Sequence record: PZ445533.1
DNA: 48,914 bases
Direction: 5' to 3' (one strand)
Source: a phage
Shown: one piece after another, positions 1 to 46,050 of the stretch
How the letters are laid out: each line of letters opens with the position of its first letter
How positions within the stretch are numbered: position 1 is the stretch's first letter
Made by a program: the position numbers and the translations under genes
The notes under the pieces: generated by a model
What the model was told of the DNA's origin: nothing
What the model saw: only the letters and a program-made list of their open reading frames with translations
Databases searched by the model: none

Positions 1-1569
1 ATGATCATATGGGAAGATTTGACGGCGGCGCAAAAGCGAGCCATTAAAGAAATCAGTGAGCATTCATTCGAAAAGATGATCAGAATCTGGTTTCAGTTAT
101 TGCAGGGGCAAAAATTCCAGAGCAACTGGCATTTTAGCTTATTGTGCAGTGAGGTAGAGAAGATCATCAATGGAGAGTCGCAGAATGTGATTTTCAACAT
201 TACGCCAGGTAGCGGTAAGACTGAGATTTTCTCGATCCACATGTCACCCTACGCGTCATTGAAAAGTCGGAAGGTGAGAAACCTTAACCTTTCGTTTAGT
301 GATGGACTTGTCCAGCAAAACAGCAACAGGATAAAGGAGATTATCGGTTCTCCTGAGTGGCAAGAGCTATGGCCAGGAAAACTGGCAAAGGCGAGCGCAA
401 AAGATCTCATAGTTACGGATGGCGGCAAGGTTAAATTGCAAGTTAACTCACGTTCTATTGGCGGACAGGTAACAGGTTTGCGTGGCGGCTATATGGACGA
501 TGGTTTTACTGGTATGCTGGTTCTGGACGATCCAGACAAGCCGGATGATATGCTTTCTAAGGTCAAGCGTGAGGCGATCCACATGCGGTTAAAAAACACA
601 GTGCGATCGCGTCGAATGAAAGACACTACGCCGATTGTTATGGTGCAACAGCGACTACACGTTAATGATTCCACCTGGTTTATGCTTAATGGCGGGATGG
701 GTGGTATTGAGTTTAAAGTTGTGAGTATTCCGGCGCTGGTTACGAAAGAATACCGCGAAACGCTTCCTGATTGGTTGAAGCCTGAATTTGATCGTGATGT
801 GTTGTCAAGTAAGCCAGTGATGATAGATGGCGTTGCTCATTATTCATTTTGGCCTGCGAAGGAAAGCGCGGAGGAATTGCTTGCATTGCGCAATGCAGAT
901 CCTTATACGTTCGCCAGTCAGTACCAACAGCAACCCATCGCGCTTGGCGGCAACGTGTTTAAAACAGAGTGGTTCCAGTATTACGGCAGCGGCGAAAAAT
1001 GCGCACTTCCTAAACCGGATCGCTTTGAATACACATTTATTACTGGTGATACCGCGCAGAAGGCCGGAGAGCTTAACGACTATTCAGTTTTTTGTTATTG
1101 GGGGATGTATAAGAATCGCGTTTACTTCATTGATGGCATTCGCGGAAAGTGGGAAGCGCCGGATCTTGAATTAAATTTTATTGCCTTCGTTAATCAGTGC
1201 TGGAAGCGCAATAAGGAGTGTGGCAGCTTGCGACGTATCCACATTGAGGATAAGGCCAGCGGCACGGGTTTGATTCAGGGGGCCAAAAAGAAGATCCCGA
1301 TTGATATAAATCCCGTTCAGCGAAGCAATGACAAGGTAACGCGAGCAATGGACGCCGCGCCAGTAATGAGGGCCGGACGTGTGGCACTGCCAGAAAGTCA
1401 TCCCATGTTACCTGAGATACTGGCAGAGGTTGCAGCGTTCACTTTTGACGATTCTCATCCCCATGATGATATTGTCGATAATATAGTTGATGCTGTTAAC
1501 GTCGAAATGAACTTGGCTGATGATCCGGTAGCAAGGATGAAAAAGCTGGCTGGTCTACGCAATAAATAG
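1..1569 (+). CDS. terL: Terminase large subunit (ATPase + nuclease); start may lie at or just before position 1
   Basis: 522 aa; Walker A NITPGSGKT, Walker B MLVLDDPD, acidic nuclease-domain residues; followed by portal; stop TAG embedded in the 21-bp motif. Confidence 0.85.
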   Translation: MIIWEDLTAAQKRAIKEISEHSFEKMIRIWFQLLQGQKFQSNWHFSLLCSEVEKIINGESQNVIFNITPGSGKTEIFSIHMSPYASLKSRKVRNLNLSFSDGLVQQNSNRIKEIIGSPEWQELWPGKLAKASAKDLIVTDGGKVKLQVNSRSIGGQVTGLRGGYMDDGFTGMLVLDDPDKPDDMLSKVKREAIHMRLKNTVRSRRMKDTTPIVMVQQRLHVNDSTWFMLNGGMGGIEFKVVSIPALVTKEYRETLPDWLKPEFDRDVLSSKPVMIDGVAHYSFWPAKESAEELLALRNADPYTFASQYQQQPIALGGNVFKTEWFQYYGSGEKCALPKPDRFEYTFITGDTAQKAGELNDYSVFCYWGMYKNRVYFIDGIRGKWEAPDLELNFIAFVNQCWKRNKECGSLRRIHIEDKASGTGLIQGAKKKIPIDINPVQRSNDKVTRAMDAAPVMRAGRVALPESHPMLPEILAEVAAFTFDDSHPHDDIVDNIVDAVNVEMNLADDPVARMKKLAGLRNK

Positions 1570-1596
1570 CACTAATTGCTAAAAAGTTATATAATC
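1564..1596 (+). repeat. Variant 21-bp box (AAATAGCACTAATTGCTAAAAAG) containing terL stop, followed by TATAAT and terminator
   Basis: Read directly; same variant as at 44639. Confidence 0.45.
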
Positions 1597-6190: not shown

Positions 6191-6208
6191 GTTTAACAAA
6201 AAGTGCTA
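6191..6208 (-). repeat. Isolated copy of 21-bp box (minus orientation) inside structural module
   Basis: TTTAACAAAAAGTGCTAT on + strand; no hairpin/CATCGAAACG tract; TATTAG 22 nt downstream in minus orientation. Confidence 0.5.
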
Positions 6209-6213
6209 TCATC

Positions 6214-6241: not shown

Positions 6242-6255
6242 ATGGAGGAAGCAAA

Positions 6256-7227: not shown

Positions 7228-7238
7228 TTAGATAACAT

Positions 7239-7268: not shown

Positions 7269-7286
7269 ATTTACGGAGTACACAAA

Positions 7287-7553: not shown

Positions 7554-7599
7554 TAATTGGGGCGCTTATGCGCCCCTTGTCATATCTGGAGAAAACAAA

Positions 7600-9214: not shown

Positions 9215-9216
9215 TC

Positions 9217-9879: not shown

Positions 9880-9884
9880 AACAA

Positions 9885-9906
9885 GGGGCGTTGCGCCCCT
9901 TTTTTC
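9885..9906 (+). terminator. Rho-independent terminator after major tail gene
   Basis: GGGGCG TTG CGCCCC plus T-run. Confidence 0.65.
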
Positions 9907-9945
9907 ATTCCTGTAAAATCAATCTATCAAATAAATTAATTCCAC

Positions 9946-9964
9946 TTTTAACAAAAAGTGCTAT
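9946..9964 (-). repeat. Isolated copy of 21-bp box (minus orientation) abutting RBS of chaperone G gene
   Basis: TTTTAACAAAAAGTGCTAT directly followed by AAGGAG and ATG 9979. Confidence 0.5.
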
Positions 9965-9978
9965 AAGGAGATCTTAAG

Positions 9979-10296: not shown

Positions 10297-10613
10297 AGCG
10301 GGCGGTTTACCTGTTTTACCTCAAGCCGCCAACTGACGCACAATTAGAGGCCGTCGGCCTATCCCGTTCAGACTACGAAGGGGAGGAGCCGCCGGAGGTA
10401 ATTTTTGATGAATCAATGTTTCAATCTTGGGATCTGTTTTGCGCTATGCAGACGCAATGGAGATCGACTAGCGGCAGTGTGTATGGGTTCGACTATAACG
10501 TTTTGCCTATGCTTTTTGACATTTACAAGATTGAGGATCGGGAGATGGCGCTAAATGATTTGCGCATCATGGAACAAAAGGCGCTAGAAATGATTCATTC
10601 AAACAAAACATAA
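9979..10613 (+). CDS. Tail assembly chaperone GT-like fusion produced by programmed -1 frameshift at 10287-10293
   Basis: Slippery heptamer A AAA AAC two codons before the G stop; -1 frame is open from 10293 and runs into ORF 10416-10613. Confidence 0.55.
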
Positions 10614-10652
10614 GCGCCGAGAGGCGCTTTTTTAATATCTGGAGGTTTTAAA

Positions 10653-20679: not shown

Positions 20680-20745
20680 CTTAGTTGTTGTTGGATGCAA
20701 CTATACACGATCTTGGGCATCGCGTTTAGCAAAAAGTGCTATTTG
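20680..20745 (-). promoter_or_regulatory. Motif cassette upstream of cor-like operon
   Basis: Minus-strand reading AAATAGCACTTTTTGCTAAA, imperfect hairpin, TATAGT, CATCCAACAACAAC, RBS AAGGAG. Confidence 0.45.
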
Positions 20746-26487: not shown

Positions 26488-26502
26488 TTGTAAAATCCTC
26501 CT

Positions 26503-26522
26503 AAATAGCACTTTTTGCTAAT
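26503..26522 (+). repeat. Isolated copy of 21-bp box upstream of tail fibre gene (opposite orientation)
   Basis: AAATAGCACTTTTTGCTAAT located 10 nt beyond fibre gene RBS. Confidence 0.5.
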
Positions 26523-26555
26523 GACAATGCAGATAATAGCATTTTCAAGTGCAAA

Positions 26556-27578: not shown

Positions 27579-28055
27579 TTAGCTATTCGTGCTGTTATCA
27601 CCTTTGTAGAATCTTCCGCCTGGTTCGTAGTCTGAATTTTTGACTACGCGCAACATTTCGTATTTGTCGCAACGGGTAGTAAGAGGCTTGCCGTTAGAAT
27701 CAAACCGCAGATCTGGACGACAAAATGATGCGCGGTATCCTTTGCATCCATTATATTTGTAGTCGTTATGCACCTTTTGTGCTCCAGCGGCTGAAATCAT
27801 ACCACGCTTTCGCCATTGGTTAACGACTTGCTGAGATACGCGCAGACGTCGAGCCATAGCAGGAACACCGCCATAATACTCGATCAGAATATCCAGGCGA
27901 GATTTCAGGCTTGCTTTTACCTCATCTCGCAGGATAAGGAATCCGGTTCGGTGTTTTCGTGGCTTTTTGTCTTTACCTCGTCGCGTTCCGTTGTTACCGT
28001 TAATAGTGCGCTTGTCGATCTCACCCGTAGATACTGCAATTCGTGCATCTTTCAT
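27579..28055 (-). CDS. Cro/YdaS-like HTH DNA-binding protein with C-terminal Cys cluster
   Basis: GGVPAMARRLRVSQQVVNQWRKRG HTH signature; basic N-terminus; GAGGTGA RBS. Confidence 0.55.
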   Translation of the reverse strand: MKDARIAVSTGEIDKRTINGNNGTRRGKDKKPRKHRTGFLILRDEVKASLKSRLDILIEYYGGVPAMARRLRVSQQVVNQWRKRGMISAAGAQKVHNDYKYNGCKGYRASFCRPDLRFDSNGKPLTTRCDKYEMLRVVKNSDYEPGGRFYKGDNSTNS

Positions 28056-28065
28056 CTAGTCACCT

Positions 28066-28130
28066 CATAGCATTTTTTGTTAAAACAGTTTATTGTAATG
28101 AGTCTATTATATACTCCAAATGGCATTTTT
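28066..28130 (+). promoter_or_regulatory. Motif copy in divergent region between HTH gene and helicase
   Basis: ATAGCATTTTTTGTTAAAAC then TATTAT 22 nt after TTGTTA, no hairpin; about 60 nt upstream of helicase ATG. Confidence 0.4.
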
Positions 28131-30140: not shown

Positions 30141-30559
30141 TGGCTATAACTGATAAAGGAGATTATCTTGAGTTTTACGAAAGAGATCCAACCGACACTA
30201 GAAAGGAAGTTAATCACCAGATAGATAGCTTTCAGTGGTTGACTTATGCTCATCCTTACTTGCTGGCGTGGCATACGGTAAACGAGAATGAGAAGTCGAA
30301 AGTAACGGCGATGATTGATCAGCAGTCCGGCTTGGTTAAGGGGGTAAGCGATTTCATCATCCTGATTGGTTCAAACGGAAAATACCCCTTTGCAGCGATT
30401 GAGATCAAACGAGTTAATAAATCAGGCAAGGGGAAAGCATCACCAGTCAGCGATGAACAAAAGGCTTTTTTGCGTCGCGTTCGCAGTTTAGGAGGATTCG
30501 CTGCGGTCGCCTACGGATTTAATCAGTTTAAGTTAGCTATTGAATACATGCTTAAATAG
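30140..30559 (+). CDS. VRR-NUC domain nuclease
   Basis: GVSDFIIL...AAIEIKR...DEQKAFL pattern typical of VRR-NUC PD-(D/E)XK fold; TAATG overlap with helicase. Confidence 0.7.
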   Translation: MAITDKGDYLEFYERDPTDTRKEVNHQIDSFQWLTYAHPYLLAWHTVNENEKSKVTAMIDQQSGLVKGVSDFIILIGSNGKYPFAAIEIKRVNKSGKGKASPVSDEQKAFLRRVRSLGGFAAVAYGFNQFKLAIEYMLK

Positions 30560-30612
30560 CACTTTTTGTTAAAACTGGCGCGATGGATTGCGCCATAATT
30601 CAATAACACGAG
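30553..30612 (+). promoter_or_regulatory. Motif cassette (21-bp box + hairpin + ATAAT) upstream of dam
   Basis: AAATAGCACTTTTTGTTAAAAC with TAG as stop of VRR-NUC gene; hairpin GGCGCGATGGATTGCGCC; CATAAT 22 nt after TTGTTA. Confidence 0.5.
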
Positions 30613-31369: not shown

Positions 31370-31627
31370 ATGAAAAAAGAGAGAAGCGTTTATTTAAATG
31401 AAACTGGCGAGTGGTTGTTATTTCGCGCTATGGTGTGCGATGCACTTGATAAAAACCCTAACGTGAAAAAGATGATTGATTGCGATCCGTGGGAATTTTC
31501 AAGCGCATTAGATATGAGCTTTGAGGATACAAGAAAACTACCTCTTGAAAAATGGCACGAACAAATAAGAAATGACATGCAAGAGTTTGTCGATTCGTGG
31601 AATTTTCAGAACGGAATGATCCACTAA
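31370..31627 (+). CDS. Hypothetical protein
   Basis: 85 aa; stop TAA directly followed by the motif cassette. Confidence 0.5.
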   Translation: MKKERSVYLNETGEWLLFRAMVCDALDKNPNVKKMIDCDPWEFSSALDMSFEDTRKLPLEKWHEQIRNDMQEFVDSWNFQNGMIH

Positions 31628-31690
31628 TAGCACTTTTTGTTAAAACGCCCGGCATTTTGTCGGGCATAATTATTTCATCGAAACGAACGT
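31626..31690 (+). promoter_or_regulatory. Motif cassette
   Basis: AATAGCACTTTTTGTTAAAAC, hairpin GCCCGGCATTTTGTCGGGC, ATAATT, CATCGAAACGAAC, RBS GAGG. Confidence 0.5.
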
Positions 31691-32114: not shown

Positions 32115-32208
32115 GGATAGTTATCATGTGGCGCTTGTTTGTTCTACCGTTACCCGTTATCATCGCTGTTACAGTTATGTACCATATAGTGATGAGATAG
32201 GTAGCAGA

Positions 32209-33324
32209 ATGAAAAATGTAAAAATTACAGATGAGCAATTCAAAATCGAACGGGCGGCGGGTAAGACATATAAACAGATCGCTCAAGAGTACGGAATGAA
32301 TGTGAGAAGCGTCGAGCGTCGCGCGGCGCGCCTTGCAAAGCAAGGCCAGGTATCCACCATTGGAGCGCCTGGTTTTGGCGTTCATGGTGAGTCAGTAATG
32401 ACTGACAAAGAAGGCAACATAATCCTAAAGTGGACTAAAACCAGCAAGGATAAAGAGCAATTAGAAGCATTAATGCGCGCAGCAATGGAGGCATTTAGCG
32501 AGGAAGTGCCGCGATTAGATCCGGTTCCATTACAGGAGCGCGACTATAACGAAACGCTTTCCTTGTATCCGATCTTTGACATGCACTTAGGCGCTATGGC
32601 CCATAAGCACGAATGCGGCGAAAATTGGGATACTGCCACGGCAGAGCGCGTTATGAATAACTTTATCGACTATGCTTTAATGTGCGCACCGGATAGCGAA
32701 AAGGCTGTCATCCTGATTGGTGGCGATATGCTGCATAGCGACGGCCTGGAGGCGGTTACACCTGCAAGCGGTCACGTACTGGATCAAGATAGTCGATATG
32801 CAAAATTGGTTTACGTTGCCATCCGTGCAATGCGACGCGCAATCAATAAAATGTTGTTAAAGCATAAACATGTTGAAGTCCAGATCGTAGAGGGCAATCA
32901 TGACCAATCAGGAATGATTTGGCTACGCGCAGCAATGGCGGCAGCATATGAAAACGAGCCGCGCGTTTACGTTGATGTTTCCCCTCGCGTTGTGCACCAC
33001 ACGCAATACGGAAAAACTTTCCTTGCGTACCATCACGGGCACACAGTGCGTAAACCGGAGGATTTGCTAATGATGTGCGCGTCAGATTGGCGGGAGGACT
33101 TCGGAAACTCAAAAACGATGTATGCGCACGTAGGGCACTGGCATCACCAGACCGTGACAGAAACGTCGCTTGGCATCGTTGAGGTGCATAGCACACTGGC
33201 GGCAAAAGACGCATACGCCGCGCGAGGTGGCTGGAGATCTCGACGCCGTGCGGCGGTTATCATTTACGACAAAGAGCATGGAGAGGTGGGGCGATTTGTT
33301 CACTATCCAGAAATGATGAATTGA
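32209..33324 (+). CDS. HTH domain fused to calcineurin-like metallophosphoesterase (Mre11/SbcD-like motifs)
   Basis: N-terminal HTH-like segment (YKQIAQEYGMNVRSVERRAARL); DxHLG, GD, GNHD, GHWHH phosphoesterase motifs; start 32209 inferred. Confidence 0.5.
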   Translation: MKNVKITDEQFKIERAAGKTYKQIAQEYGMNVRSVERRAARLAKQGQVSTIGAPGFGVHGESVMTDKEGNIILKWTKTSKDKEQLEALMRAAMEAFSEEVPRLDPVPLQERDYNETLSLYPIFDMHLGAMAHKHECGENWDTATAERVMNNFIDYALMCAPDSEKAVILIGGDMLHSDGLEAVTPASGHVLDQDSRYAKLVYVAIRAMRRAINKMLLKHKHVEVQIVEGNHDQSGMIWLRAAMAAAYENEPRVYVDVSPRVVHHTQYGKTFLAYHHGHTVRKPEDLLMMCASDWREDFGNSKTMYAHVGHWHHQTVTETSLGIVEVHSTLAAKDAYAARGGWRSRRRAAVIIYDKEHGEVGRFVHYPEMMN

Positions 33325-34814: not shown

Positions 34815-34889
34815 CCTTTTTGGTTGGTTCGTTTCGATGAAACAAATATACCCGACACAAGGTCGGGAGTTTTAACAAAAAATGCTATT
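34815..34889 (-). promoter_or_regulatory. Motif cassette
   Basis: Minus-strand AATAGCATTTTTTGTTAAAAC, hairpin CCCGACCTTGTGTCGGG, TATATT, CATCGAAACGAACC. Confidence 0.5.
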
Positions 34890-35079
34890 CCATACGCTTT
34901 ACTGTAACCAATAACACACCATCATCATTGCATAAAACGTGTTCAGTGGTGCTAAAAGCTCGCATATCTGAATAAAGTAGCGTAAGTAAAGCATGAATAA
35001 AATCATCATGTGATATTGAATTTACGGCGCAGTGCTTCAAGATCTTGTCTATTAGCTTTTGCCTGGAACAATTCATCAT
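34885..35079 (-). CDS. Hypothetical small ORF overlapping 3' end of upstream gene (uncertain)
   Basis: 64 aa ORF whose TAG stop is the TAG inside the 21-bp motif; overlaps 35006-35401 by 74 nt. Confidence 0.2.
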   Translation of the reverse strand: MMNCSRQKLIDKILKHCAVNSISHDDFIHALLTLLYSDMRAFSTTEHVLCNDDGVLLVTVKRME

Positions 35080-36984: not shown

Positions 36985-37053
36985 GCTTCTCCTTTGTGGG
37001 CCGTAAATTTTAACGGCCCAATACTACCCCGTTTTGTCAAAAAGTGCTATTTG
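36985..37053 (-). promoter_or_regulatory. Motif cassette (box carries canonical TTGACA) upstream of P-loop ATPase gene
   Basis: Minus-strand AAATAGCACTTTTTGACAAAAC, hairpin GGGCCG...CGGCCC with TAAAAT in loop 22 nt after TTGACA. Confidence 0.5.
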
Positions 37054-37268
37054 ATCCGCTCTATTGCAACCAGAAGTCGATCAGGCTGGCGGTCGCTGTA
37101 GCATTCTCCTGTAATCCCATCCTTAAACGTAAAGTAAAGCGCCTTATGATATGAAAAACCAATCAGCCAACCTACCGCCGTTTTTTTGATGGGCCTGACT
37201 ATATCGCCAGGCTTGAAAGTCTTTGTGGTAGAATGCGTTACTTTGTAACGGTTTTCACTGTTTATCAC
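37047..37268 (-). CDS. Hypothetical protein
   Basis: 73 aa; ATGA overlap with upstream gene; stop TAG within motif. Confidence 0.5.
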   Translation of the reverse strand: MINSENRYKVTHSTTKTFKPGDIVRPIKKTAVGWLIGFSYHKALYFTFKDGITGECYSDRQPDRLLVAIERIK

Positions 37269-37659: not shown

Positions 37660-37727
37660 CTCCTTTGTTTGTTCGATGTGATTATGCCAGGTTTTTACAC
37701 CTGGCTTTTAACAAAAAGTGCTATTTT
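37660..37727 (-). promoter_or_regulatory. Motif cassette
   Basis: Minus-strand motif containing methyltransferase stop TAG, hairpin GCCAGGTGTAAAAACCTGGC, ATAATC, TCGAACAAACAAAGGAG. Confidence 0.5.
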
Positions 37728-38431
37728 GAGTTTGACTCAAAGACTGCGCGAGCAAAGCCGCGCGGAGTGAGGGAGCGGATCATCTTTGTGCGCGATGACT
37801 TGCCGCCAGTTTTGGCCCAGCCTGGATTATCTTTGTCTTCCTCTTTCGGCAGGATTAAAGCGCGTGGAGGAATAACAAAGCCGTTGCCAGTCCAGAGGCA
37901 CGTTTTCTTAAAATAGCGATCACGCGCCGGAATAATATCAGGGAAGTCGGGATGTTTATCATCTTCCGGCAGATAGCCAGCGTAATCGCACGGATGGAAC
38001 GTATAATCAGGCTTACGCCATAACGTTGACAACTTGCCAACCGGATTTTCGATCATGTAAGGAACACCGAAATAATCAGCTATATCAGCCGCGATTCTGC
38101 AAGTGTCGGCGGCCTCATCCTGGAACGATGGATTCTCAAGGCGTTTTTTGGCCCAATGGCGAGATCCGCTATTTGCAAGGTCGGTGCAAGGAGGGAACGC
38201 CATAATAAAATCAGGATTGCCCCACTCATTATTGATTGCCTTAACATAAAAAGCATCATCAATCCAGACGTTAACGTATTCGATATTCTCATGCTGTATG
38301 CGCACTGACTGGTAATCACCGTGATCGCCGCCGTCAGCATTAAAGCAAATGCACTTATATCCATTATCAGCCCAATCTTTAACTGCTTTACCAGATCCAT
38401 CAAATAGGGAGAACATTAAACCTTTATACAT
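37721..38431 (-). CDS. Compact DNA (cytosine-5)-methyltransferase-like protein
   Basis: 236 aa; motif I-like FSLFDGSG, motif IV FPPCTDLANSG (PC catalytic Cys), motif VI ENPVG, C-terminal TPRGFARAVF; GAGG RBS 8 nt upstream of ATG 38431. Confidence 0.6.
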   Translation of the reverse strand: MYKGLMFSLFDGSGKAVKDWADNGYKCICFNADGGDHGDYQSVRIQHENIEYVNVWIDDAFYVKAINNEWGNPDFIMAFPPCTDLANSGSRHWAKKRLENPSFQDEAADTCRIAADIADYFGVPYMIENPVGKLSTLWRKPDYTFHPCDYAGYLPEDDKHPDFPDIIPARDRYFKKTCLWTGNGFVIPPRALILPKEEDKDNPGWAKTGGKSSRTKMIRSLTPRGFARAVFESNSK

Positions 38432-38441
38432 CGTCATTACC

Positions 38442-38666
38442 TCAAAACGGAAAACAGCGCGGACAACCAGGATCGAAATCGCATCCACAATCATTAACAA
38501 TCATAGTGGGATCTGCAAATATTGCGCTTGATTCAAGATCCATATCCATATCACCTAAAGCCTCATCAAGAGTCTTAATTTTATATGCCACTTCAAGCGC
38601 CGCCTCTTTATTTAGTCCGGCATCTTCTGCCATTTGAAGGCGCTCAAAAAATCCGTCTTGACTCAT
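38442..38666 (-). CDS. Small acidic protein with C-terminal Cys knuckle (CGCDFDPGCPRC)
   Basis: 74 aa, 16 acidic vs about 5 basic residues; stop overlaps RBS of methyltransferase gene. Confidence 0.5.
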   Translation of the reverse strand: MSQDGFFERLQMAEDAGLNKEAALEVAYKIKTLDEALGDMDMDLESSAIFADPTMIVNDCGCDFDPGCPRCFPF

Positions 38667-39574: not shown

Positions 39575-39643
39575 CCTCGTTTGTTGTCGATGCGCTTACT
39601 ATACCAATCAGCAGCGCATCGTTTTTAACAAAAAGTGCTATTT
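39575..39643 (-). promoter_or_regulatory. Motif cassette
   Basis: Minus-strand motif, hairpin GATGCGCT...AGCGCATC with TATAGT in loop, CATCGACAACAAACGAGGA. Confidence 0.5.
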
Positions 39644-39863
39644 AGTCCAGAAATTCGATTTCACGCTCTCCAGTTAACGGATTTACAAGCCAGAATCCGA
39701 GAGGTTCGCCGTGAACACCGCCATAGAATCCAAGCGCCGCCAGATCTTCACCTTTAACGAATACCAGGTTTCCGCTACGGCTTACGTGAGACACGTTAAC
39801 GATAACCGGAAATATGCGATCCTTAAATGCAGGCCGCAGGGCGTAACATCCGTTATTGAGCAA
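39642..39863 (-). CDS. Hypothetical protein
   Basis: 73 aa; stop TAA immediately followed by motif. Confidence 0.45.
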   Translation of the reverse strand: MLNNGCYALRPAFKDRIFPVIVNVSHVSRSGNLVFVKGEDLAALGFYGGVHGEPLGFWLVNPLTGEREIEFLD

Positions 39864-40341: not shown

Positions 40342-40595
40342 TTTTTCTTCTCCTGCAATAAGCAAACATCATTGATAAAATCAGCACGGCCCTTAATGTT
40401 GCTGATGTGGAACGTCTTTTCAGCGTACAGGCCATCACCTTCAATCACGATCATTACGCGAGTCGGTTTATTCACGGGCGCACACGAAAAGAGTGGTCGC
40501 GCCGGAAGAAATTTAGTGGTCACATCCAGGTTAGCCCTGGCGGCCCTGCAAAATGCCTCCGCCAGATCCAAATCATTTTCGGTAATCACCGCCAT
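40329..40595 (-). CDS. Hypothetical protein
   Basis: 88 aa; ATGA-type coupling with upstream gene. Confidence 0.45.
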   Translation of the reverse strand: MAVITENDLDLAEAFCRAARANLDVTTKFLPARPLFSCAPVNKPTRVMIVIEGDGLYAEKTFHISNIKGRADFINDVCLLQEKKKCWM

Positions 40596-40867
40596 TACTT
40601 TTTGATCTCCTTACTGATAAATTTCAGCACATGGCGCAAGAAAACTTCGTTGTTGATAGTCGCTGGCAATTCTTCTTTCACTTCTTGCGGCAGATAGATA
40701 TTGCCGTGCCAGGTCAAGCAATCGTAGTTGATACGATAAGAGCAAAGCCACTCGCAATCGTTATCTGCTTCCCAAATGCAGAGTTGCAGAACATCGCCAA
40801 AATCTTCAACAGTCAGATCCAGACCGTGACGCTTAGCGAAATTGAAAGTGGTTTTGCTGATGTTCAT
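40595..40867 (-). CDS. Hypothetical protein, first gene of leftward small-gene operon
   Basis: 90 aa; AGGAG RBS; motif cassette immediately upstream. Confidence 0.55.
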   Translation of the reverse strand: MNISKTTFNFAKRHGLDLTVEDFGDVLQLCIWEADNDCEWLCSYRINYDCLTWHGNIYLPQEVKEELPATINNEVFLRHVLKFISKEIKK

Positions 40868-40874: not shown

Positions 40875-40946
40875 CTCCTGAGCGGTTCGTTTCGATGTGT
40901 GTAATGTACCCGATCAGGCGGCCTGATTTTTAACAAAAAGTGCTAT
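40875..40946 (-). promoter_or_regulatory. Motif cassette at head of leftward small-gene operon
   Basis: Minus-strand motif, hairpin ATCAGGCCGCCTGAT, TACATT, CATCGAAACGAACC, RBS AGGAG. Confidence 0.5.
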
Positions 40947-40949
40947 TTG

Positions 40950-41485
40950 ACGGTTAGCACCAGGATTGTGATCGAAATAATCAAAAGTAATCATTCGTAA
41001 TCAAATCACGTCAAAATGATGATTGCCTTTGCAAATTTGATGAGAAAAGTAATCACGTTTAATCATTGGTTGCAGGGGAGATAGTGAAACCCTCCACTCT
41101 TGCCTCACTTTTCCGCCTGGCTGTCAGTGGTTGTTATGTTCCGTTCCCGCCTGTTCTTTTGTTGACCTTCCGCAAAATACGATAACAAAAAATAACAAAC
41201 AATACCTATATAATACATTGAAAAATAAGGATTATTTATTTATATGTATCTATATATTCTCTTTTGTTATCTTGGTTATTGTGGTATTTGGTGGGGGTAT
41301 ATAGTTTTTGTGTATCTGTATGTGTGTATGGGTATGTAGGGGCATATATATCTATATGGCACTTTCCGCGAGAAAACTTCGATAACAGGCAATGATAACA
41401 TTGATTTATAAGGAAAAATAACGCCCATATTGTTATTGTGCCACCATATAAAATTGATAAAACACGCGGGAACAAGAAAAAACAG
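40950..41485. repeat. AT-rich divergent control region B, homologous to region A, with (G)TAATCA iteron-like repeats
   Basis: Five TAATCA copies 40975-41075; shared blocks TTATTTATTTAT, GTATCTGTATGTG, GGGAACAAGAAAAA with region A. Confidence 0.5.
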
Positions 41486-41514
41486 TTGACACATTAAATA
41501 GCATTATTGATAAT
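41486..41514 (+). promoter_or_regulatory. Sigma70-like promoter (TTGACA-17-GATAAT) for rightward operon
   Basis: TTGACA 41486-41491, 17-nt spacer, GATAAT 41509-41514, RBS AGGAGG and ATG 41544 downstream. Confidence 0.6.
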
Positions 41515-41543
41515 GCCGACACCTAACAACCAGGAGGTAGAAA

Positions 41544-42008
41544 ATGAGCGAGCAATCATTCACTGACACGCTGCGCCGTGCAGCTATTATGCTGGCTAAT
41601 GGCGAGGAAGAGACGATCAAGATTCCTGACGCGTATTTGCAGGTCCACATGTTCGGCAAGAAGTCGGCAAGCAATCCGGCGGCCTACATTCGCCAGATCA
41701 TGAGTCGAGTGCCAGAAGTCGCCGAGCGGGGGCGCGTATCCGTTACCCGTGGCGTTTACGGGCCGGAAGATGAAAACTTCGGTAGCACTTTCTACGAGGT
41801 GCGGATTGTTGAAGGCCGTCGCAAGGTTTACAACAAAGAGGCACTGGAAAGGGCAGTGCGCCAGGCTAAGCGCAAGGTTGCAGAGGCGATCATTGATATG
41901 TCACCAAACCTGGCAAACTATGCGCCGGAAGAGTACGAAACATTATCAAAGGCCGTCGCTGACTTTCACGCGATGATCAAAAAAACTTTCCTGGAGGATG
42001 AGCAATGA
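41544..42008 (+). CDS. Hypothetical protein, first gene of rightward operon
   Basis: 154 aa; AGGAGG RBS; canonical sigma70-like promoter about 30 bp upstream. Confidence 0.6.
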   Translation: MSEQSFTDTLRRAAIMLANGEEETIKIPDAYLQVHMFGKKSASNPAAYIRQIMSRVPEVAERGRVSVTRGVYGPEDENFGSTFYEVRIVEGRRKVYNKEALERAVRQAKRKVAEAIIDMSPNLANYAPEEYETLSKAVADFHAMIKKTFLEDEQ

Positions 42009-42277
42009 AAAAGGCATTAATCAGCGTTTTGGCGGCAATGGCATTCCTGACCGGATGCAAAGAAGATGGCGCGCATGTTGGCAATGTGCAGATGGCTAAC
42101 CCTGGTGATGACTACAGCGTAAGGGAGCTATTCACCGCTGACGGTTGCACCGTTTACCGATTCTATGACGATCGCACTGTTTACTTCACCAACTGCAAGG
42201 GCACTACTAGCTGGGAAGTGTCGAAAAGCAATGGCAAAGGCACGAAGACAGAACATATGACCGTCGAGACAAAATAG
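42005..42277 (+). CDS. Lipoprotein (second superinfection-exclusion candidate)
   Basis: 90 aa; signal peptide and lipobox LTGC; ATGA overlap with upstream gene; stop TAG within motif. Confidence 0.55.
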   Translation: MKKALISVLAAMAFLTGCKEDGAHVGNVQMANPGDDYSVRELFTADGCTVYRFYDDRTVYFTNCKGTTSWEVSKSNGKGTKTEHMTVETK

Positions 42278-42335
42278 CACTTTTTGTTAAAACTCAAATG
42301 TGGGGCCAGGTATAATGGCCTCACTTTCAACGAGA
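42272..42335 (+). promoter_or_regulatory. Motif cassette
   Basis: Motif with TAG stop of lipoprotein gene; hairpin GGCC...GGCC with TATAAT in loop, 21 nt after TTGTTA. Confidence 0.5.
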
Positions 42336-42987: not shown

Positions 42988-43526
42988 TGAAAATTTATAC
43001 ATTTGAACTATGGGGCAATAAGTACGAATTTACGACAAGCAAGCCTATTGTTGTGTGCGATCTCGACGGCACGCTATCGGACGGATCGCATCGTTTGCAC
43101 TTGCTGCCAACCGAAAACTTGCACCTTACGGAATCGTGGAGCGAATTTAACAGGGCAGCCGCCGCAGATTCACCGATTAAGAGCACGATTGCTGTTATCA
43201 ATGGTTTGTGGGTATCTGGCTTTGCCGTCGTTATCCTTACCGGACGCAGCGACGAAGTGCGCTATGAAACATGTAAATGGCTGAATGAGAACGGCGTGAA
43301 GTTTGACGAAATCATCATGCGTCGCCAGCAGGACAACCGAAAGGATACGGTTATTAAAGAAGAAGCCTTGCGCGCTATTGGATTGGGCAACATTGTTTGC
43401 GCCTTTGACGATTCTCCGAATGTGGTTAAGCACTTCCGAAGCCTGGGGATCACAACCTATCAGGTCACGGAATACGACAAGCCACACGCTCACCTGCAAT
43501 CTCACGGCGTGGAGTGTTTAAAATGA
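42987..43526 (+). CDS. HAD-family phosphatase (nucleotidase or polynucleotide 3'-phosphatase-like)
   Basis: DxDGT motif (VVCDLDGTL) at N-terminus, later hhhhTGR and FDD motifs typical of HAD fold; TGATG overlap with HNH gene. Confidence 0.6.
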   Translation: MKIYTFELWGNKYEFTTSKPIVVCDLDGTLSDGSHRLHLLPTENLHLTESWSEFNRAAAADSPIKSTIAVINGLWVSGFAVVILTGRSDEVRYETCKWLNENGVKFDEIIMRRQQDNRKDTVIKEEALRAIGLGNIVCAFDDSPNVVKHFRSLGITTYQVTEYDKPHAHLQSHGVECLK

Positions 43527-43684
43527 CTTGGTTGCTTTTAATCTTTGTCACAAGTTACAACTCCGCAGCTATTGAGTCGCAGGAGTTCCACGGCGAATCA
43601 AGATGCCAGGAAGCGCGAAAGCAAGTTGTTCTCCACATGTCAGATAGTGGGAAGGATGTAACAGCGTTATGCGTTCGTAAATAG
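43523..43684 (+). CDS. Small protein with N-terminal hydrophobic/signal-like segment (53 aa)
   Basis: Own translation MTWLLLIFVTSYNSAAIESQEF...; ATGA overlap with upstream stop; TAG stop is the TAG of the 21-bp motif. Confidence 0.4.
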   Translation: MTWLLLIFVTSYNSAAIESQEFHGESRCQEARKQVVLHMSDSGKDVTALCVRK

Positions 43685-43775
43685 CACTTTTTGTTAAAGC
43701 ATTCCATCGGGCTTGCTTTATAGTAAGCCCATCAACAACGAAAGAGGAAAGCATCATGTTGTTACAGCAGACGAG
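43679..43775 (+). promoter_or_regulatory. Motif cassette
   Basis: Motif, hairpin GGGCTT...AAGCCC with TATAGT in loop, ATCAACAACGAAAGAGGAAA. Confidence 0.5.
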
Positions 43776-43786: not shown

Positions 43787-44056
43787 ATGACACGCAAAAT
43801 TGAAATATTCCAGGCCATAGACAGAATCGACATGAGGGATTCACTATTCGCTATTGAGTCCATTGATGGCGAAGACGTCGCCTACAACGTAGAGCTGGAT
43901 GAATACAGCTTCGACTGTGTGCGCAAAAAGTTTGCAGATAAAATTGCTATGCAAGGCCGATGCTTGCATAAAGACTCAAGCATAGAGCCTAGACGAAGCG
44001 ACATGATTAATCCAAAACTTGTTGAGACTATTACTTTTGTGGAGAGCAGAAAATGA
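43787..44056 (+). CDS. Hypothetical protein
   Basis: 89 aa downstream of motif cassette; ATGA overlap with kinase gene. Confidence 0.5.
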   Translation: MTRKIEIFQAIDRIDMRDSLFAIESIDGEDVAYNVELDEYSFDCVRKKFADKIAMQGRCLHKDSSIEPRRSDMINPKLVETITFVESRK

Positions 44057-44643
44057 AAAGAGACATCATTATCCTGAATGGGCCACCTGGAGTGGGAAAG
44101 GACACCATTGCGGCATACCTTACCGGACACCAATACCCAGCAGTTAAGGCATCATTCAAACAGCCAATGTTCGATATTGCGTTCTCCATGCTTGGTGTGT
44201 ACAGATACGATGAATTTATGGACTTGTACAACGACCGGGAACAGAAAGAAAAGCCTCAAGTGATATTGCAGGGCAAATCACCGCGTCAGTTCATGATCTG
44301 GATTAGCGAGGAGGTAATGAAGCCAGCATTTGGGGAACAGTATTTCGGCTGGAGAATGGTTGAGCAGATTCACGAAATGTACCGCGACCTTGCAATTATC
44401 GTAACAGACGGCGGCTTTCCAGAAGAAATCAAGCCACTGATTAAAGCAGGTCACAAAGTGCACATTTGCCGACTGCATCGCGAGGGGTACACGTTCGATG
44501 GCGACTCGCGAAACTATATCGACATGGGCGACTATCATCACCGCCTCAAGCATTACGATTTCACGTTGCACGATGGCGAGCCAGAAAAGACGGTGGAGGA
44601 AATCATCGAAACCGTGCAGTGGCATTTCACAAAAATCAAATAG
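44053..44643 (+). CDS. P-loop nucleotide kinase (dNMP-kinase-like, GKDT motif)
   Basis: N-terminal IILNGPPGVGKDT Walker A resembling phage deoxynucleoside-monophosphate kinases; stop TAG within motif variant. Confidence 0.6.
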   Translation: MKRDIIILNGPPGVGKDTIAAYLTGHQYPAVKASFKQPMFDIAFSMLGVYRYDEFMDLYNDREQKEKPQVILQGKSPRQFMIWISEEVMKPAFGEQYFGWRMVEQIHEMYRDLAIIVTDGGFPEEIKPLIKAGHKVHICRLHREGYTFDGDSRNYIDMGDYHHRLKHYDFTLHDGEPEKTVEEIIETVQWHFTKIK

Positions 44644-44705
44644 CACGAATTGCTAAACGCGGGGCGCAATGCTCCGCTATAATTTACCCCGTTCAGTAAA
44701 CATAG
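44639..44705 (+). promoter_or_regulatory. Motif cassette (variant box AAATAGCACGAATTGCTAAA)
   Basis: Variant box containing kinase stop TAG, GC hairpin, TATAAT 22 nt after TTGCTA. Confidence 0.45.
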
Positions 44706-45699: not shown

Positions 45700-45990
45700 A
45701 TGGCAACTATGCGAAAAATGCTTATCAATGGCTTTGAAAGAGAAATTCGCCGTCGAGGCTGGGATGATTCTAAAAATTCACCTTACACTATCAATCGCGG
45801 AGAGTATAAATCAGTTCGACATTTTGCACGATGCCTGGCTGGATGCTACGACCTGGAGCATCCTTTCCCGTTCATGAACGAAACGCTAACCGAAATGATG
45901 GAAGAGGCCGCAACTCAAGATCGACCATTGACGCAACATGATTTTGATGAGTTTGCGCACTGGGAAATCGAATGTGCGCTATATAAATAG
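45700..45990 (+). CDS. Hypothetical protein
   Basis: 96 aa, AGGAGAA RBS; stop TAG within motif. Confidence 0.55.
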   Translation: MATMRKMLINGFEREIRRRGWDDSKNSPYTINRGEYKSVRHFARCLAGCYDLEHPFPFMNETLTEMMEEAATQDRPLTQHDFDEFAHWEIECALYK

Positions 45991-46050
45991 CACTTTTTGT
46001 TAAAACCAGCTTCGGCTGGTTTTGTATTATATGCGCATCGACAACAGAGG
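45985..46050 (+). promoter_or_regulatory. Motif cassette
   Basis: Motif with TAG stop, hairpin CCAGCTTCGGCTGG + T-run, TATTAT, CATCGACAACAGAGGAGG. Confidence 0.5.

What the first reader, a model, noticed from the sequence alone, without database searches (positions are those of the whole stretch)
30553..30612. Genome-wide 21-bp box in a conserved promoter-like cassette (17 copies, 13 directly upstream of genes)
Seen directly: the box AAATAGCACTTTTTGTTAAAA (variants TTGCTA, TTGACA, and AATAGCAC-G/T-AATTGCTAAA) occurs at + strand 1564, 26503, 28066, 30553, 31626, 42272, 43679, 44639, 45985 and inverted at 6191, 9946, 20725, 34871, 37031, 37707, 39621, 40926. In at least 11 copies the TAG inside the box (or a TAA just before it) is the stop codon of the upstream gene, so coding sequence has adapted to the box. 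In 13 copies the box is followed, in gene orientation, by a short GC-rich hairpin of variable sequence, a -10-like hexamer (ATAAT/TATAGT/TATATT) placed 21-23 nt after TTGNTA, often a conserved CATCGAAACGAAC or CATCGACAACA tract, then RBS and ATG. The 22-nt spacing is too long for a canonical sigma70 promoter. Inference: a phage-specific promoter class, plausibly host RNAP plus a phage activator binding the box, or a combined terminator-promoter punctuation element.
Basis: partly seen in the sequence, partly recalled or inferred. Interest (0 to 1): 0.8.

Follow-up and report, generated by a model that had tools for sequence, protein, structure and literature searches.

The report
Phage promoters carrying host marbox sites
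A 21-base box repeated 17 times in this T1-like coliphage marks its early and middle promoters. In sequence, orientation and position it matches the binding site of the host's MarA/SoxS/Rob stress and antibiotic-resistance activators, which offers a testable answer to a published open question about what these repeats do.

Summary
There are 17 boxes of the AAATAGCACTTTTTGTTAAAA type, against 0 expected. Fourteen are followed 21-22 nt after TTGNTA by a sigma70 -10 hexamer, usually with a G at -14 and often a CA start 7 nt later. Eleven overlap the upstream gene's stop codon. Most carry a stem-loop that ends before +1. The same cassette occurs 11-24 times in each of seven other Drexlerviridae genomes.

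The repeat itself is already published for phage TLS (2024), with its function listed as an open question.

New here: the box fits the binding site of the host MarA/SoxS/Rob/RamA activators (marbox, GCAnnWWnTGnnAAA; 16 of 17 copies with no mismatch). It lies in forward orientation, centred at about -40, with no -35 hexamer. That is the defining layout of class II marbox promoters. GCAC to the -10 is 35 nt, as in E. coli micF (35) and fumC (34).

These phages encode no MarA-like protein. The cassette also occurs in an unrelated Murrayvirus and in T4-like Klebsiella phages; the Murrayvirus was checked and lacks the T1-type regulator.

Best explanation: host-activator-assisted early/middle promoters fused to terminator-like stem-loops. 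Binding and activation are untested.

The parts
30554..30606 (+). Cassette upstream of the Dam methylase gene (ATG 30640; the ORF listing gives a TTG start at 30613). Box 30554-30574; its TAG is the stop of the VRR-NUC gene. Stem-loop 30576-30595 (-12.1 kcal/mol). -10 CATAAT 30594-30599. Predicted +1 A at 30606.
31625..31677 (+). Cassette. Box 31625-31645; TAA at box positions 1-3 is the stop of ORF 31370-31627. Stem-loop 31647-31665 (-14.1). -10 CATAAT 31665-31670. Predicted +1 A at 31677 in tCATCGAAACGAAC.
28065..28117 (+). Cassette for the helicase gene (28143). It lies in the divergent region next to the regulator gene (27579-28055, - strand). Box TCATAGCATTTTTTGTTAAAA. -10 TATTAT 28105-28110. 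No stem-loop. A box at this position is found in all 8 Drexlerviridae genomes examined.
42272..42323 (+). Cassette. The box TAG is the stop of ORF 42005-42277. The stem-loop 42302-42322 encloses the -10 TATAAT 42311-42316 (spacer 21). Predicted +1 at 42323.
43679..43731 (+). Cassette. The box TAG is the stop of ORF 43514-43684. The stem-loop 43709-43730 encloses the -10 TATAGT 43719-43724. Predicted +1 A at 43731 (CCATCAACAACG).
44638..44690 (+). Cassette of the GAA subtype. Box AAATAGCACGAATTGCTAAAC contains the perfect dyad TAGCA-N5-TGCTA. Its TAG is the stop of ORF 44053-44643. Stem-loop 44659-44677 (-13.3). -10 TATAAT 44678-44683.
45985..46037 (+). Cassette. The box TAG is the stop of ORF 45700-45990. 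Stem-loop CCAGCTTCGGCTGG followed by TTTTG. -10 TATTAT 46025-46030. Predicted +1 A at 46037 (GCATCGACAACA).
20693..20744 (-). Cassette at the head of the small leftward membrane/lipoprotein operon (20674 down to 19504). Box 20724-20744. -10 TATAGT 20700-20705 (spacer 21).
34838..34890 (-). Cassette. The box TAG is the stop of ORF 34885-35079. Stem-loop 34851-34867. -10 TATATT 34845-34850. Predicted +1 A at 34838 (tCATCGAAACGAAC).
37000..37052 (-). Cassette upstream of the DNA helicase gene (36978 down to 35398). Box with the TTGACA variant; its TAG is the stop of ORF 37047-37268. -10 TAAAAT 37007-37012 lies inside the GGGCCG...CGGCCC stem-loop.
37674..37726 (-). Cassette. The box TAG is the stop of the methyltransferase ORF 37721-38500. 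Stem-loop 37686-37705 (-14.0). -10 CATAAT 37681-37686.
39591..39643 (-). Cassette. A TAA overlapping the box start is the stop of ORF 39642-39863. The stem-loop encloses the -10 TATAGT 39598-39603. Predicted +1 A at 39591 (GCATCGACAACA).
40896..40948 (-). First promoter of the leftward early operon, with no gene upstream. Box 40928-40948. -10 TACATT 40903-40908. Predicted +1 A at 40896 (aCATCGAAACGAAC).
9914..9966 (-). Orphan cassette pointing antisense in the late region. Box 9946-9966. -10-like TAGATT 9921-9926 at 22 nt. The predicted transcript of about 35 nt runs straight into the bidirectional terminator 9884-9906. The inverted box abuts the SD of gene 9979 (+). The same layout occurs in T1 (18832-).
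1564..1584 (+). Atypical box with a strict marbox match. Its TAG is the stop of the large terminase gene. It is followed by TATATAAT after 9 nt and an intrinsic terminator (1599-1622). There is no -10 at 21-23 nt.
6191..6211 (-). Atypical box, inverted relative to the flanking + strand head genes. It sits just before the + strand terminator 6217-6243 and has no -10 at 21-23 nt.
26503..26523 (+). Atypical box (ends AATG, so it fails the strict 15-mer). It is inverted relative to the tail-fibre gene, whose SD (aggagg) it abuts, and has no -10 at 21-23 nt.

Best explanation
Each cassette is a sigma70 promoter of the class II Mar/Sox/Rob type.

**Shown from sequence.**
- The box occupies about -52 to -32.
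- It contains a forward-oriented marbox: RE1 GCAC at about -47 to -44, an A/T-rich 7-bp linker, and RE2 TGnTAAA at about -39 to -33.
- A -10 hexamer (TAnnnT) follows at -12 to -7, with G at -14 in 80% of copies.
- There is no -35 hexamer.
- The consensus across cassettes has a CA 7 nt after the -10 (the A is +1); in the window the base at that position is A in 9 of 14 copies.
- A leader of about 26 nt, A/C-rich, runs to the SD.

**Inferred.**
- A monomer of a host marbox-binding activator binds the box. Rob is constitutively present; MarA and SoxS appear under stress; RamA is available in Klebsiella and Enterobacter.
- The activator contacts sigma70 region 4 and alpha-CTD, replacing the missing -35 contact, as seen in the micF class II complexes.
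- Early and middle genes can therefore be transcribed by unmodified host RNAP straight after injection.

The stem-loop lies entirely upstream of +1, so it is transcribed only by read-through from the upstream gene. There it would act as an attenuator, terminator or 3'-end protector, making each cassette a terminator-promoter joint. The stop codon of the upstream gene is folded into the box (T-A-G falls on marbox positions Y-n-G).

The whole cassette behaves as a mobile module that is also found in other phage families.
For: **Sequence match.**
- The published marbox 5'-GCAnnWWnTGnnAAA-3' (PMC12052159) matches 16 of 17 window boxes with no mismatch.
- Genome-wide counts of strict matches are 16 in the window against 0.6 in shuffles, and 8-20 in seven other genomes.
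- Against the classical 20-mer (14 specified positions), 95 of 122 boxes have at most 1 mismatch. This is the same range as micF (1), the mar marbox (1) and fumC (0).
- The phage box is 16/20 identical to the marRAB marbox read in K-12.
- The conservation logo is asymmetric in the way the marbox is: G6 carries 1.88 bits and its dyad partner 0.76.

**Orientation and position.**
- Class II means a forward marbox overlapping the -35, centred between -36 and -55.
- Forward sites cluster at -41 in Salmonella ChIP/Cappable-seq. Class II promoters there lack a -35 but keep a canonical -10.
- The RamA-RNAP cryo-EM structure on micF has the site at about -41, read as CACT-7N-AAA.
- The phage 15-mer centre is -40. 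micF computes to -41. fumC is listed at -39.
- G of GCAC to the first base of the -10 is 35 nt in the phage, 35 nt in micF and 34 nt in fumC.
- The hexamer at the 17-nt spacer is AAAACN in the phage and AAAACA in micF. The best match to TTGACA at spacers 16-18 averages 2.7 of 6.

**Reader is probably the host's.**
- No MarA/SoxS/Rob homolog is found in 8 Drexlerviridae genomes (best E 0.2).
- The full cassette is present in Murrayvirus IME_EC2: 6 copies, and no T1-regulator homolog.
- It is also present in T4-like Slopekvirus PMBT1 and phage phi1_146010.
- Box-bearing records are overwhelmingly phages of Enterobacterales.
- The leftward early operon begins with a box promoter.

**It is a real promoter.**
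- RB49 PeSLs carry the same -10, leader and SD half, but with TTGACA at 17 nt in place of the box.
Against: - No binding, footprint, start-site or expression data exist for any of these cassettes. All positions relative to +1 rest on a predicted start.
- Rob is reported to be largely sequestered in inactive aggregates without an inducer. MarA and SoxS are scarce in unstressed cells (my own knowledge). Yet T1-like phages grow well in plain laboratory culture, so strict dependence on these activators is doubtful.
- Good -10 elements with G at -14 may give substantial activator-independent activity.
- The box is far more uniform than host marboxes. This could mean a more specific reader, or concerted evolution of a mobile cassette.
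- The box carries a partial dyad (TAGCA-N5-TGCTA), and a copy sits next to the Cro-like regulator gene in all eight genomes.
- Three or four copies (1564, 6191, 26503, and arguably 9946) do not fit the promoter layout.
- The literature library lacks most subscription papers, so prior tests may have been missed.
Confidence: 0.62

Rival explanations
1. The box is the operator of a phage-encoded activator. Candidates are the T1 gp23-like Cro-type HTH protein (27579-28055), the gp16-like phosphoesterase with an N-terminal sigma-region-4-like HTH (32128-33324), or an unrecognised small early protein. This protein would bind at -42 and recruit host RNAP. The resemblance to the marbox would be convergence or mimicry.
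For: - The partial dyad TAGCA-N5-TGCTA is perfect in the TTGCTA variants.
- A box abuts the regulator gene's SD in all 8 genomes, which looks like autoregulation.
- The regulator is a Cro-like HTH protein.
- The gp16-like protein has a weak Sigma70_r4_2 hit at E 0.002.
- The box is conserved much more tightly than host marboxes.
- A canonical sigma70 promoter at 41486-41514 could supply early phage proteins first.
Against: - Conservation is asymmetric, unlike a dimer operator.
- IME_EC2 has six cassettes with the same geometry but no homolog of the regulator.
- Slopekvirus phages carry the cassette. All sampled regulator hits were in 37-55 kb genomes.
- The only small protein shared by the window and IME_EC2 occurs in 432 records, against 1175 records with boxes.
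- No MarA-like two-HTH protein is encoded.
- The sequence, spacing and orientation match to micF and fumC would have to be coincidence.
Confidence: 0.14
2. The box is read directly by RNA polymerase, without any activator. It would act as an UP-like element or alternative upstream contact for alpha-CTD or sigma region 4 that compensates for the missing -35 at strong extended -10 promoters.
For: - The centre of the box is A/T-rich (TTTTT, GAATT, TAATT) and lies at about -42.
- The TLS authors suggested UP elements.
- G at -14 is present in 80% of cassettes and TGn in 37%.
- RB49 cassettes with the same downstream half use an A-tract plus TTGACA.
Against: - The most conserved positions are G/C-containing (GCAC, TG), which is not an UP-element trait.
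- The T-tract lies at -43 to -39, which does not fit the UP subsite consensus as I recall it (my own knowledge).
- TTGNTA sits 5 bp, half a helical turn, too far upstream for sigma region 4.
- This reading does not explain the exact marbox match.
Confidence: 0.1
3. The box is mainly a negative or structural signal rather than an activating one. Options are a stoperator-like repressor or roadblock site, the T-rich tail of an antisense terminator (stem-loop + TTTTAAC on the opposite strand), or simply the recombination handle of a mobile cassette.
For: - The TLS authors noted the likeness to L5 stoperators.
- Read on the opposite strand, each stem-loop is followed by TTTTAACAAAAAG.
- Three copies lie inverted next to late-gene SDs or terminators.
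- Cassettes are shared between phage families in the manner of PeSLs.
Against: - The rigid 22-nt link to a -10 hexamer, the -14 G and the start-site CA are unexplained by a purely negative or recombinational role.
- Some cassettes lack a stem-loop altogether (28065; Rtp 16301; Rogue1 43727).
- The phage is virulent and has no L5-type repressor.
- A mobile-cassette role is compatible with, not opposed to, the promoter function.
Confidence: 0.07

Closest known systems
21-nt intergenic direct repeats of phage TLS (German, DeGiulio, Ramsey, Kropinski, Misra 2024, PHAGE; PMC11447400); said also to occur in T1, Rtp and Rogue1
   Same: This is the same element. The TLS consensus is aaATAGCACnnnTTGnTAAAA, with 18 intergenic copies in the direction of transcription, about 76 nt before start codons, and TTT/AAA/GAA subtypes. 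In this window the start codon lies at a median box position of 79.
   Different: That paper leaves the function open. It floats stoperator, enhancer site or UP element, and lists the repeat as an unanswered question. It does not report the fixed 22-nt link to a -10, the -14 G, the stop-codon overlap, the stem-loop statistics, the marbox match, or occurrence outside Drexlerviridae.
Class II Mar/Sox/Rob/RamA-dependent promoters of Enterobacteriaceae (micF, fumC; also lpxC P2, lpxL P1, rfaY P1)
   Same: - An asymmetric marbox in forward orientation overlaps the -35 position, centred at about -40.
- There is no recognisable -35, and the sigma70 -10 is canonical.
- The GCAC-to--10 distance is identical or within 1 nt (35 vs 35 and 34 nt).
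- fumC likewise follows directly after the upstream gene's terminator.
   Different: - They are located in virulent phage genomes at 11-24 copies per 45-51 kb, far denser and far less degenerate than host sites.
- A stem-loop is nested between the marbox and the -10, or around the -10.
- The upstream stop codon lies inside the marbox.
- Binding by the host proteins is not demonstrated.
PeSLs (promoter-early stem-loops): composite terminator/promoter cassettes of T4-type phages (Arbiol 2010, PMC2839356; Comeau 2014, PMC4122927)
   Same: - They are small, conserved intergenic cassettes combining a stem-loop and an early promoter.
- They lie next to small ORFan genes and are shared and shuffled between genomes.
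- RB49 PeSLs even share the -10 / CAT(C)CGAAACGAAC leader / SD half, and precede a homolog of window ORF 40595-40867.
   Different: PeSL promoters have a near-consensus -35 at 17 nt (TTGACA...N17...TATAAT), and the stem-loop lies upstream of the promoter. Here the -35 is replaced by the box at 22 nt, and the stem-loop lies inside the promoter.
T4 middle promoters (MotA box with AsiA sigma appropriation)
   Same: They are phage promoters in which a conserved box replaces the -35 and an activator bound there works with sigma70 and a normal -10.
   Different: As I recall, the MotA box (TGCTT core; quotes a TGCTT Mot-box) is centred near -30, about 12 nt from the -10. Here the box is centred at about -40 to -42, with 22 nt from TTGNTA to the -10. 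No motA or asiA is annotated in these genomes.
Mycobacteriophage L5 stoperators
   Same: They are many copies of a short asymmetric site, oriented with transcription and spread through a phage genome.
   Different: Stoperators bind the phage repressor of a temperate phage and block elongation. They have no fixed relation to a -10 hexamer. This phage is virulent and the box is rigidly coupled to core promoter elements.

Membership tests
Class II Mar/Sox/Rob (marbox) promoter | Asymmetric marbox sequence: GCAnnWWnTGnnAAA, or the 20-mer AYnGCACnnWnnRYYAAAYn | tested here: met
   Sixteen of 17 window boxes match the 15-mer with 0 mismatches, against 0.6 matches in shuffles. Of 122 boxes, 95 have at most 1 mismatch to the 20-mer, like micF, mar and fumC. 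The 15-mer comes from PMC12052159. The 20-mer is from memory but was checked on three natural sites.
Class II Mar/Sox/Rob (marbox) promoter | Forward orientation relative to the transcribed gene (GCAC distal, AAA proximal) | tested here: met
   Thirteen of 17 copies lie forward, directly upstream of a gene on the same strand. This is the orientation of micF and fumC and matches the definition.
Class II Mar/Sox/Rob (marbox) promoter | Site overlaps the -35 position, centred around -41 (allowed range -36 to -55) | tested here: met
   With the -10 at box positions 41-46 and the conserved CA at 52-53, the 15-mer centre is -40. micF is at -41 and fumC at -39. The start site is predicted, not measured.
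Class II Mar/Sox/Rob (marbox) promoter | No recognisable -35 hexamer; canonical sigma70 -10 | tested here: met
   The hexamer at the 17-nt spacer is AAAACN (2 of 6). The best of spacers 16-18 averages 2.7 of 6. The -10 hexamers are TATAGT, TATTAT, CATAAT, TATATT and TATAAT. This agrees with the Salmonella class II logo description.
Class II Mar/Sox/Rob (marbox) promoter | [quoted passage not shown] | not testable with these tools
   This needs EMSA or footprinting, in vitro transcription, and reporter assays in activator mutants.
Class II Mar/Sox/Rob (marbox) promoter | The activator is available in the cell where the promoter works | tested here: met
   marA, soxS and rob are present in E. 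coli K-12. Records carrying the box are mostly phages of Klebsiella, Escherichia, Shigella, Salmonella, Enterobacter, Citrobacter, Cronobacter and Yersinia. No phage-encoded homolog was found.
TLS-type 21-nt direct repeat (Drexlerviridae) | Consensus aaATAGCACnnnTTGnTAAAA; intergenic; in the direction of transcription; about 76 nt before the start codon | tested here: met
   (median start codon at box position 79).
PeSL (T4-type promoter-early stem-loop) | Stem-loop followed by an early promoter with -35 and -10 hexamers 17 nt apart | tested here: not met
   There is no -35 at 16-18 nt, and the stem-loop lies inside the promoter. RB49 PeSLs read for comparison have TTGACA-N17-CATAAT.
UP element | A/T-rich -59 to -38 region with A-tract or T-tract subsites, upstream of a functional -35 | tested here: not met
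   The most conserved positions are GCAC and TG, and there is no -35 downstream of it. The UP consensus used for comparison is from my own knowledge.
sigma54 promoter (TGGCAC-N5-TTGCW) | GG at -24 and GC at -12, separated by the fixed spacing | tested here: not met
   The box reads TAGCAC-N3-TTGNTA. The GG is AG and the spacing is 2 nt short. A sigma70 -10 follows at a fixed distance.

The most novel reading that the evidence does not exclude
T1-like phages, and some Murrayvirus and T4-like Klebsiella phages, have wired most of their early and middle transcription to the host Mar/Sox/Rob/RamA regulon by using optimised class II marboxes in place of -35 elements.

Phage gene expression, latent period and burst would then respond to bile salts, salicylate, oxidants and antibiotics. 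Multidrug-resistant marR, ramR or soxR mutants would be altered, possibly better, hosts.

The roughly 20 high-affinity sites on each replicating phage genome could in turn drain these activators away from host resistance genes.
Probability: 0.4. Interest if true: 0.85.

Novelty: new member of a known kind. Interest (0 to 1): 0.68.

Why it matters
[quoted passage not shown] Reading the repeat as a class II marbox turns that question into simple experiments with existing reagents: purified MarA, SoxS or Rob, triple mutants, and the standard inducers.

If the reading is right, a large and common family of virulent enterobacterial phages takes its early transcription cue from the same regulators that drive intrinsic multidrug resistance. 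Many of these phages are considered for therapy against E. coli and Klebsiella. The link would bear on several things:
- phage-antibiotic combinations;
- phage behaviour in the bile-rich gut;
- the choice of production hosts;
- the design of compact, host-tunable phage promoters.

The finding would also extend the idea of mobile promoter-terminator cassettes (PeSLs) from T4-type phages to siphoviruses. In this version the upstream half has been swapped for an activator site.

Tried and rejected
- **TTGNTA as a sigma70 -35.** The spacer is fixed at 22 nt, and no -10 lies at 16-18 nt.
- **A hidden -35 at 17 nt.** That hexamer is AAAACN.
- **Cruciform extrusion shortening the spacer.** Stem-loops vary in position, are absent in some cassettes, and would remove far more than 5 bp.
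- **sigma54.** TAGCAC-N3-TTG has the wrong spacing and lacks the GG.
- **sigma32, sigma28 and sigma38.** The downstream element is a plain TAnnnT hexamer at the wrong distances. This is reasoning from the sequences and consensus sequences from memory.
- **Lrp site.** The consensus YAGHAWATTWTDCTR (from memory) fits the TAGCA/TGCTA half-sites. It does not fit the asymmetric conservation, or C9 and T13.
- **Phage-encoded MarA-like protein.** tblastn and a MarA/SoxS/Rob profile against all six-frame ORFs of 8 genomes gave nothing better than E 0.2. A MarA hit in IME_EC2 (E 0.001) is out of frame with the annotated gene, arginine-rich and outside any listed ORF, so it is spurious.
- **The small protein shared by the window and IME_EC2 (40595-40867) as a universal box reader.** It has no Pfam domain. 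It occurs in only 432 records and in many phages of other families.
- **Published start sites or transcriptomes for T1-like phages, and any paper linking them to Mar/Sox/Rob.** None was found. The Rtp genome paper is not held.
- **The covariation test.** It was limited to a seven-sequence alignment of orthologous cassettes. Stem-loop potential persists with different sequences and positions, but the sample is too small and too poorly alignable for formal statistics.
Full report
**What the window is.** The 48.9-kb window is an almost complete genome of a virulent T1-like coliphage. It is 99% identical to Escherichia phages tinuso, tonn and swan01 (Drexlerviridae, Tempevirinae, Warwickvirus).

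**Checking the observation.**
- The box AAATAGCACTTTTTGTTAAAA occurs 16 times with at most 3 mismatches. None of 100 dinucleotide-preserving shuffles gave a match. A 17th, more divergent copy (AAATAGCACGAATTGCTAAAC) lies at 44638.
- Fourteen copies carry a [T/C]AnnnT hexamer 21-22 nt after TTGNTA.
- By ORF ends, the TAG inside the box is the stop codon of the upstream ORF in nine copies. A TAA at the box edge is the stop in two more.
- Twelve of the 14 have a stem-loop between the box and the predicted start.

**Conservation.** A weight matrix built from the 17 copies was run over seven other genomes.
- Copy numbers: 21 in tonn, 24 in T1, 19 in Rtp, 21 in TLS, 17 in Rogue1, 17 in Klebsiella phage KP36 and 11 in Cronobacter phage ESP2949-1. 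Shuffles gave 0-3.
- Across 122 non-redundant copies, the -10-like hexamer sits at exactly 22 nt in 92 and at 21 or 23 nt in 16.
The element is old and under selection.

**Anatomy from the alignment of 121 cassettes.**
- Conserved box positions are A3 T4 A5 G6 C7 A8 C9, an A/T-rich stretch at 10-12, then T13 T14 G15 y16 T17 A18 A19 A20.
- The sequence between positions 22 and 37 is unconstrained.
- G39 carries 0.92 bit and corresponds to -14 of an extended -10.
- The hexamer at 41-46 is TAnnnT.
- C52-A53 lies 7 nt after the hexamer, the usual place and sequence of a start site.
- This places the box at -52 to -32.
- The start codon lies at a median box position of 79, giving a leader of about 26 nt.
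- No -35 exists at the normal distance. The hexamer 17 nt upstream of the -10 is AAAACN, and the best match to TTGACA at spacers 16-18 averages 2.7 of 6.

**Prior art.** The repeat is already described.
- German et al. 2024 (PMC11447400) report a 21-nt repeat in TLS with consensus aaATAGCACnnnTTGnTAAAA. It has 18 intergenic copies in the direction of transcription, about 76 nt before start codons.
- They say similar repeats occur in T1, Rtp and Rogue1.
- They suggest stoperators, enhancer sites or UP elements, and list its function among the open questions for the field.
- I found no paper that links these repeats to any defined factor. The library lacks most subscription journals.

**What the box is.** Its asymmetric pattern matches the marbox, the binding site of the monomeric two-HTH activators MarA, SoxS, Rob and RamA.
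- The Grainger laboratory's definition, 5'-GCAnnWWnTGnnAAA-3', equals box positions 6-20. Sixteen of the 17 window copies match it with no mismatch.
- Strict matches number 16 in the window against 0.6 in shuffles, and 8-20 in the seven other genomes.
- The classical 20-mer AYnGCACnnWnnRYYAAAYn is recalled from Martin et al. 1999, which is cited. I checked it here on fumC (0 mismatches), micF (1) and the mar marbox (1). It fits 95 of 122 phage boxes with at most 1 mismatch.
- The phage box ATAGCACTTTTTGCTAAAAC is 16/20 identical to the marRAB operon's own marbox, ATGCCACGTTTTGCTAAATC.

**Position and orientation.**
- Class II marbox promoters are defined by a forward-oriented marbox overlapping the -35, centred between -36 and -55.
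- In Salmonella, forward sites cluster at -41. Class II promoters there lack a -35 but keep canonical -10 elements and start sites.
- In the cryo-EM complex of RamA with RNA polymerase on micF, the site lies at about -41 and reads CACT-7N-AAA.
- The phage cassettes have the marbox forward and centred at -40.
- In E. coli K-12, the G of GCAC lies 35 nt before the first base of the micF -10 and 34 nt before that of fumC. In the phage it is 35 nt.
- micF even has AAAACA where the phage has AAAACN.
- fumC, like the phage cassettes, follows directly after the terminator of the upstream gene. Its marbox is listed at -39 from the mapped start.

**Who reads it.**
- tblastn with MarA, SoxS and Rob, and a profile of their DNA-binding domains against every six-frame ORF of eight Drexlerviridae genomes, found nothing better than E 0.2.
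- The annotated 'transcriptional regulator' (27579-28055) is a single-HTH Cro/YdaS-like protein.
- The box is not confined to Drexlerviridae. A BLAST of two box variants hits 1175 phage records, mostly from Klebsiella, Escherichia, Shigella, Salmonella, Enterobacter, Citrobacter, Cronobacter and Yersinia phages.
- The unrelated Murrayvirus IME_EC2 has six cassettes with the same 22-nt geometry and no homolog of the T1-type regulator. One of its cassettes lies in its P22-like morphogenesis region.
- T4-like Slopekvirus PMBT1 and phage phi1_146010 carry the whole cassette. That includes the stop codon in the box, the stem-loop round the -10 and the CATCGAAAC leader.
- In the window, the rightward early operon starts at a near-consensus sigma70 promoter (TTGACA-N17-GATAAT, 41486-41514). 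The leftward one starts at a box promoter.
- Together these points favour a host reader. They do not prove it.

**The stem-loop.**
- In 111 cassettes, the 44 nt from box position 19 fold to -8 kcal/mol or better in 71%. The mean z-score is -2.9 against shuffles.
- The stems take two positions, inside the spacer or around the -10. In both cases most of them end before +1.
- The stem-loop is therefore part of transcripts coming from upstream, not of the transcript started at the cassette.
- Orthologous cassettes keep the pairing potential with different sequences and positions.
- T1 and KP36 annotators called several of them rho-independent terminators, although most lack a proper U-tract.
- I read them as attenuators or 3'-end protectors.

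**Relation to PeSLs.**
- Composite terminator/promoter cassettes that shuffle small early genes are known in T4-type phages.
- The 90-aa ORF 40595-40867, the first gene after the leftward box promoter, has homologs in 432 phage records of several families.
- In RB49 this homolog is preceded by a PeSL: stem-loop, T-run, TTGACA-N17-CATAAT, then acaccCATCAAGACGA. The next PeSL has CATACCGAAACGAAC.
- The -10, leader and SD half is thus shared between RB49 PeSLs and the T1-like cassettes, while the upstream half differs (a -35 at 17 nt versus the box at 22 nt).
- This supports the start-site assignment. It also supports the view that the box functionally replaces the -35.

**What does not fit.**
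- Box 1564 (the terminase stop codon lies inside it) is followed by TATATAAT after 9 nt and by a terminator, with no -10 at 22 nt.
- Boxes 6191, 9946 and 26503 are inverted relative to the neighbouring late genes.
- Box 9946 has TAGATT at 22 nt and would give only a ~35-nt RNA ending in the bidirectional terminator. T1 keeps the same layout, whereas Rtp and vB_EcoS-2006III have a forward, well-formed cassette at that site.
- Three boxes, read on the opposite strand, abut the SD of genes starting at 9979, 26490 and 28055. I have no tested explanation for this.

**Weighing the explanations.**
- That the cassette is a promoter I rate near 0.9.
- That its box is read by host Mar/Sox/Rob-type activators I rate about 0.6.
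- The main reservations are these:
  - There is no direct evidence of binding or activation.
  - Rob is reported to be largely inactive without an inducer.
  - These phages grow readily in unstressed laboratory cultures.
  - The box is unusually uniform.
- Rivals are a phage-encoded reader (0.14), direct recognition by RNA polymerase (0.10), and a mainly negative or structural role (0.07).

**Verdict.** The specific assignment as class II marbox promoters nested with stem-loops appears to be new and is directly testable.

Noticed in passing
window 40950-41540: A ~600-bp non-coding divergent region lies between the two early operons. It contains repeated GTAATCA-type motifs (40985-41075), a stretch of irregular TATGT/TATCT repeats (41215-41350), and a near-consensus sigma70 promoter TTGACA-N17-GATAAT at 41486-41514. 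It may hold the origin or pac functions.
   Followed up: partly
window 31676-31689, 34826-34839, 40884-40897 and others; L019 (RB49) 184-197 and 532-546; L016, L017: The leader tract CAT(C)CGAAACGAAC / CATCGACAACA starts at the predicted +1. It is shared by cassettes of Drexlerviridae, Slopekvirus and RB49 PeSLs. Its role is unknown; it could be a translation enhancer or an initial transcribed sequence.
   Followed up: partly
window 40595-40867 (-): This 90-aa ORF with no Pfam domain is the first gene of the leftward early operon. It has homologs in 432 phage records across Drexlerviridae, Murrayvirus, Krischvirus (RB49), rV5-like, Serratia and Erwinia phages. It looks like a promiscuous early gene that travels with different promoter cassettes.
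   Followed up: partly
window 32128-33324 (+): The gp16-like 'DNA repair exonuclease' has a weak N-terminal Sigma70_r4_2 / HTH hit (residues 43-74, E 0.002) ahead of a weak metallophosphoesterase domain. The KP36 annotation notes the same. It is a possible DNA-binding enzyme or late regulator.
   Followed up: no
window 9946-9978, 26491-26523, 28056-28085: In three places the box, read on the opposite strand, ends 0-1 nt before the SD of a gene: the tape-measure chaperone (9979), the tail fibre (26490) and the regulator (28055). If it is transcribed in those 5' UTRs, it would be complementary to the forward box carried at the 3' ends of early mRNAs. This is unexplained.
   Followed up: no
window 9884-9926 (-): The orphan box promoter 9946(-) is predicted to make only a ~35-nt RNA ending in the bidirectional terminator after the major tail gene. 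The layout is conserved in T1 (18832-). In Rtp and vB_EcoS-2006III it is replaced by a forward cassette.
   Followed up: partly
phage collection hits: About 20 records named 'Campylobacter phage' with host C. jejuni (for example E6 and A118, ~50 kb) are T1-like genomes carrying the boxes, the regulator and the 90-aa gene. Their host labels look doubtful.
   Followed up: no
L018 (IME_EC2) 7150-12903: Murrayvirus IME_EC2 combines P22-like virion and ejection genes with a T1-like replication and recombination module: primase, helicase, VRR-NUC, exonuclease VIII, Erf and SSB, at 23-47% identity. The Dam-like methylase lies just outside this stretch at 6353-6994. It also carries six box promoters, which makes it a clear mosaic.
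   Followed up: partly
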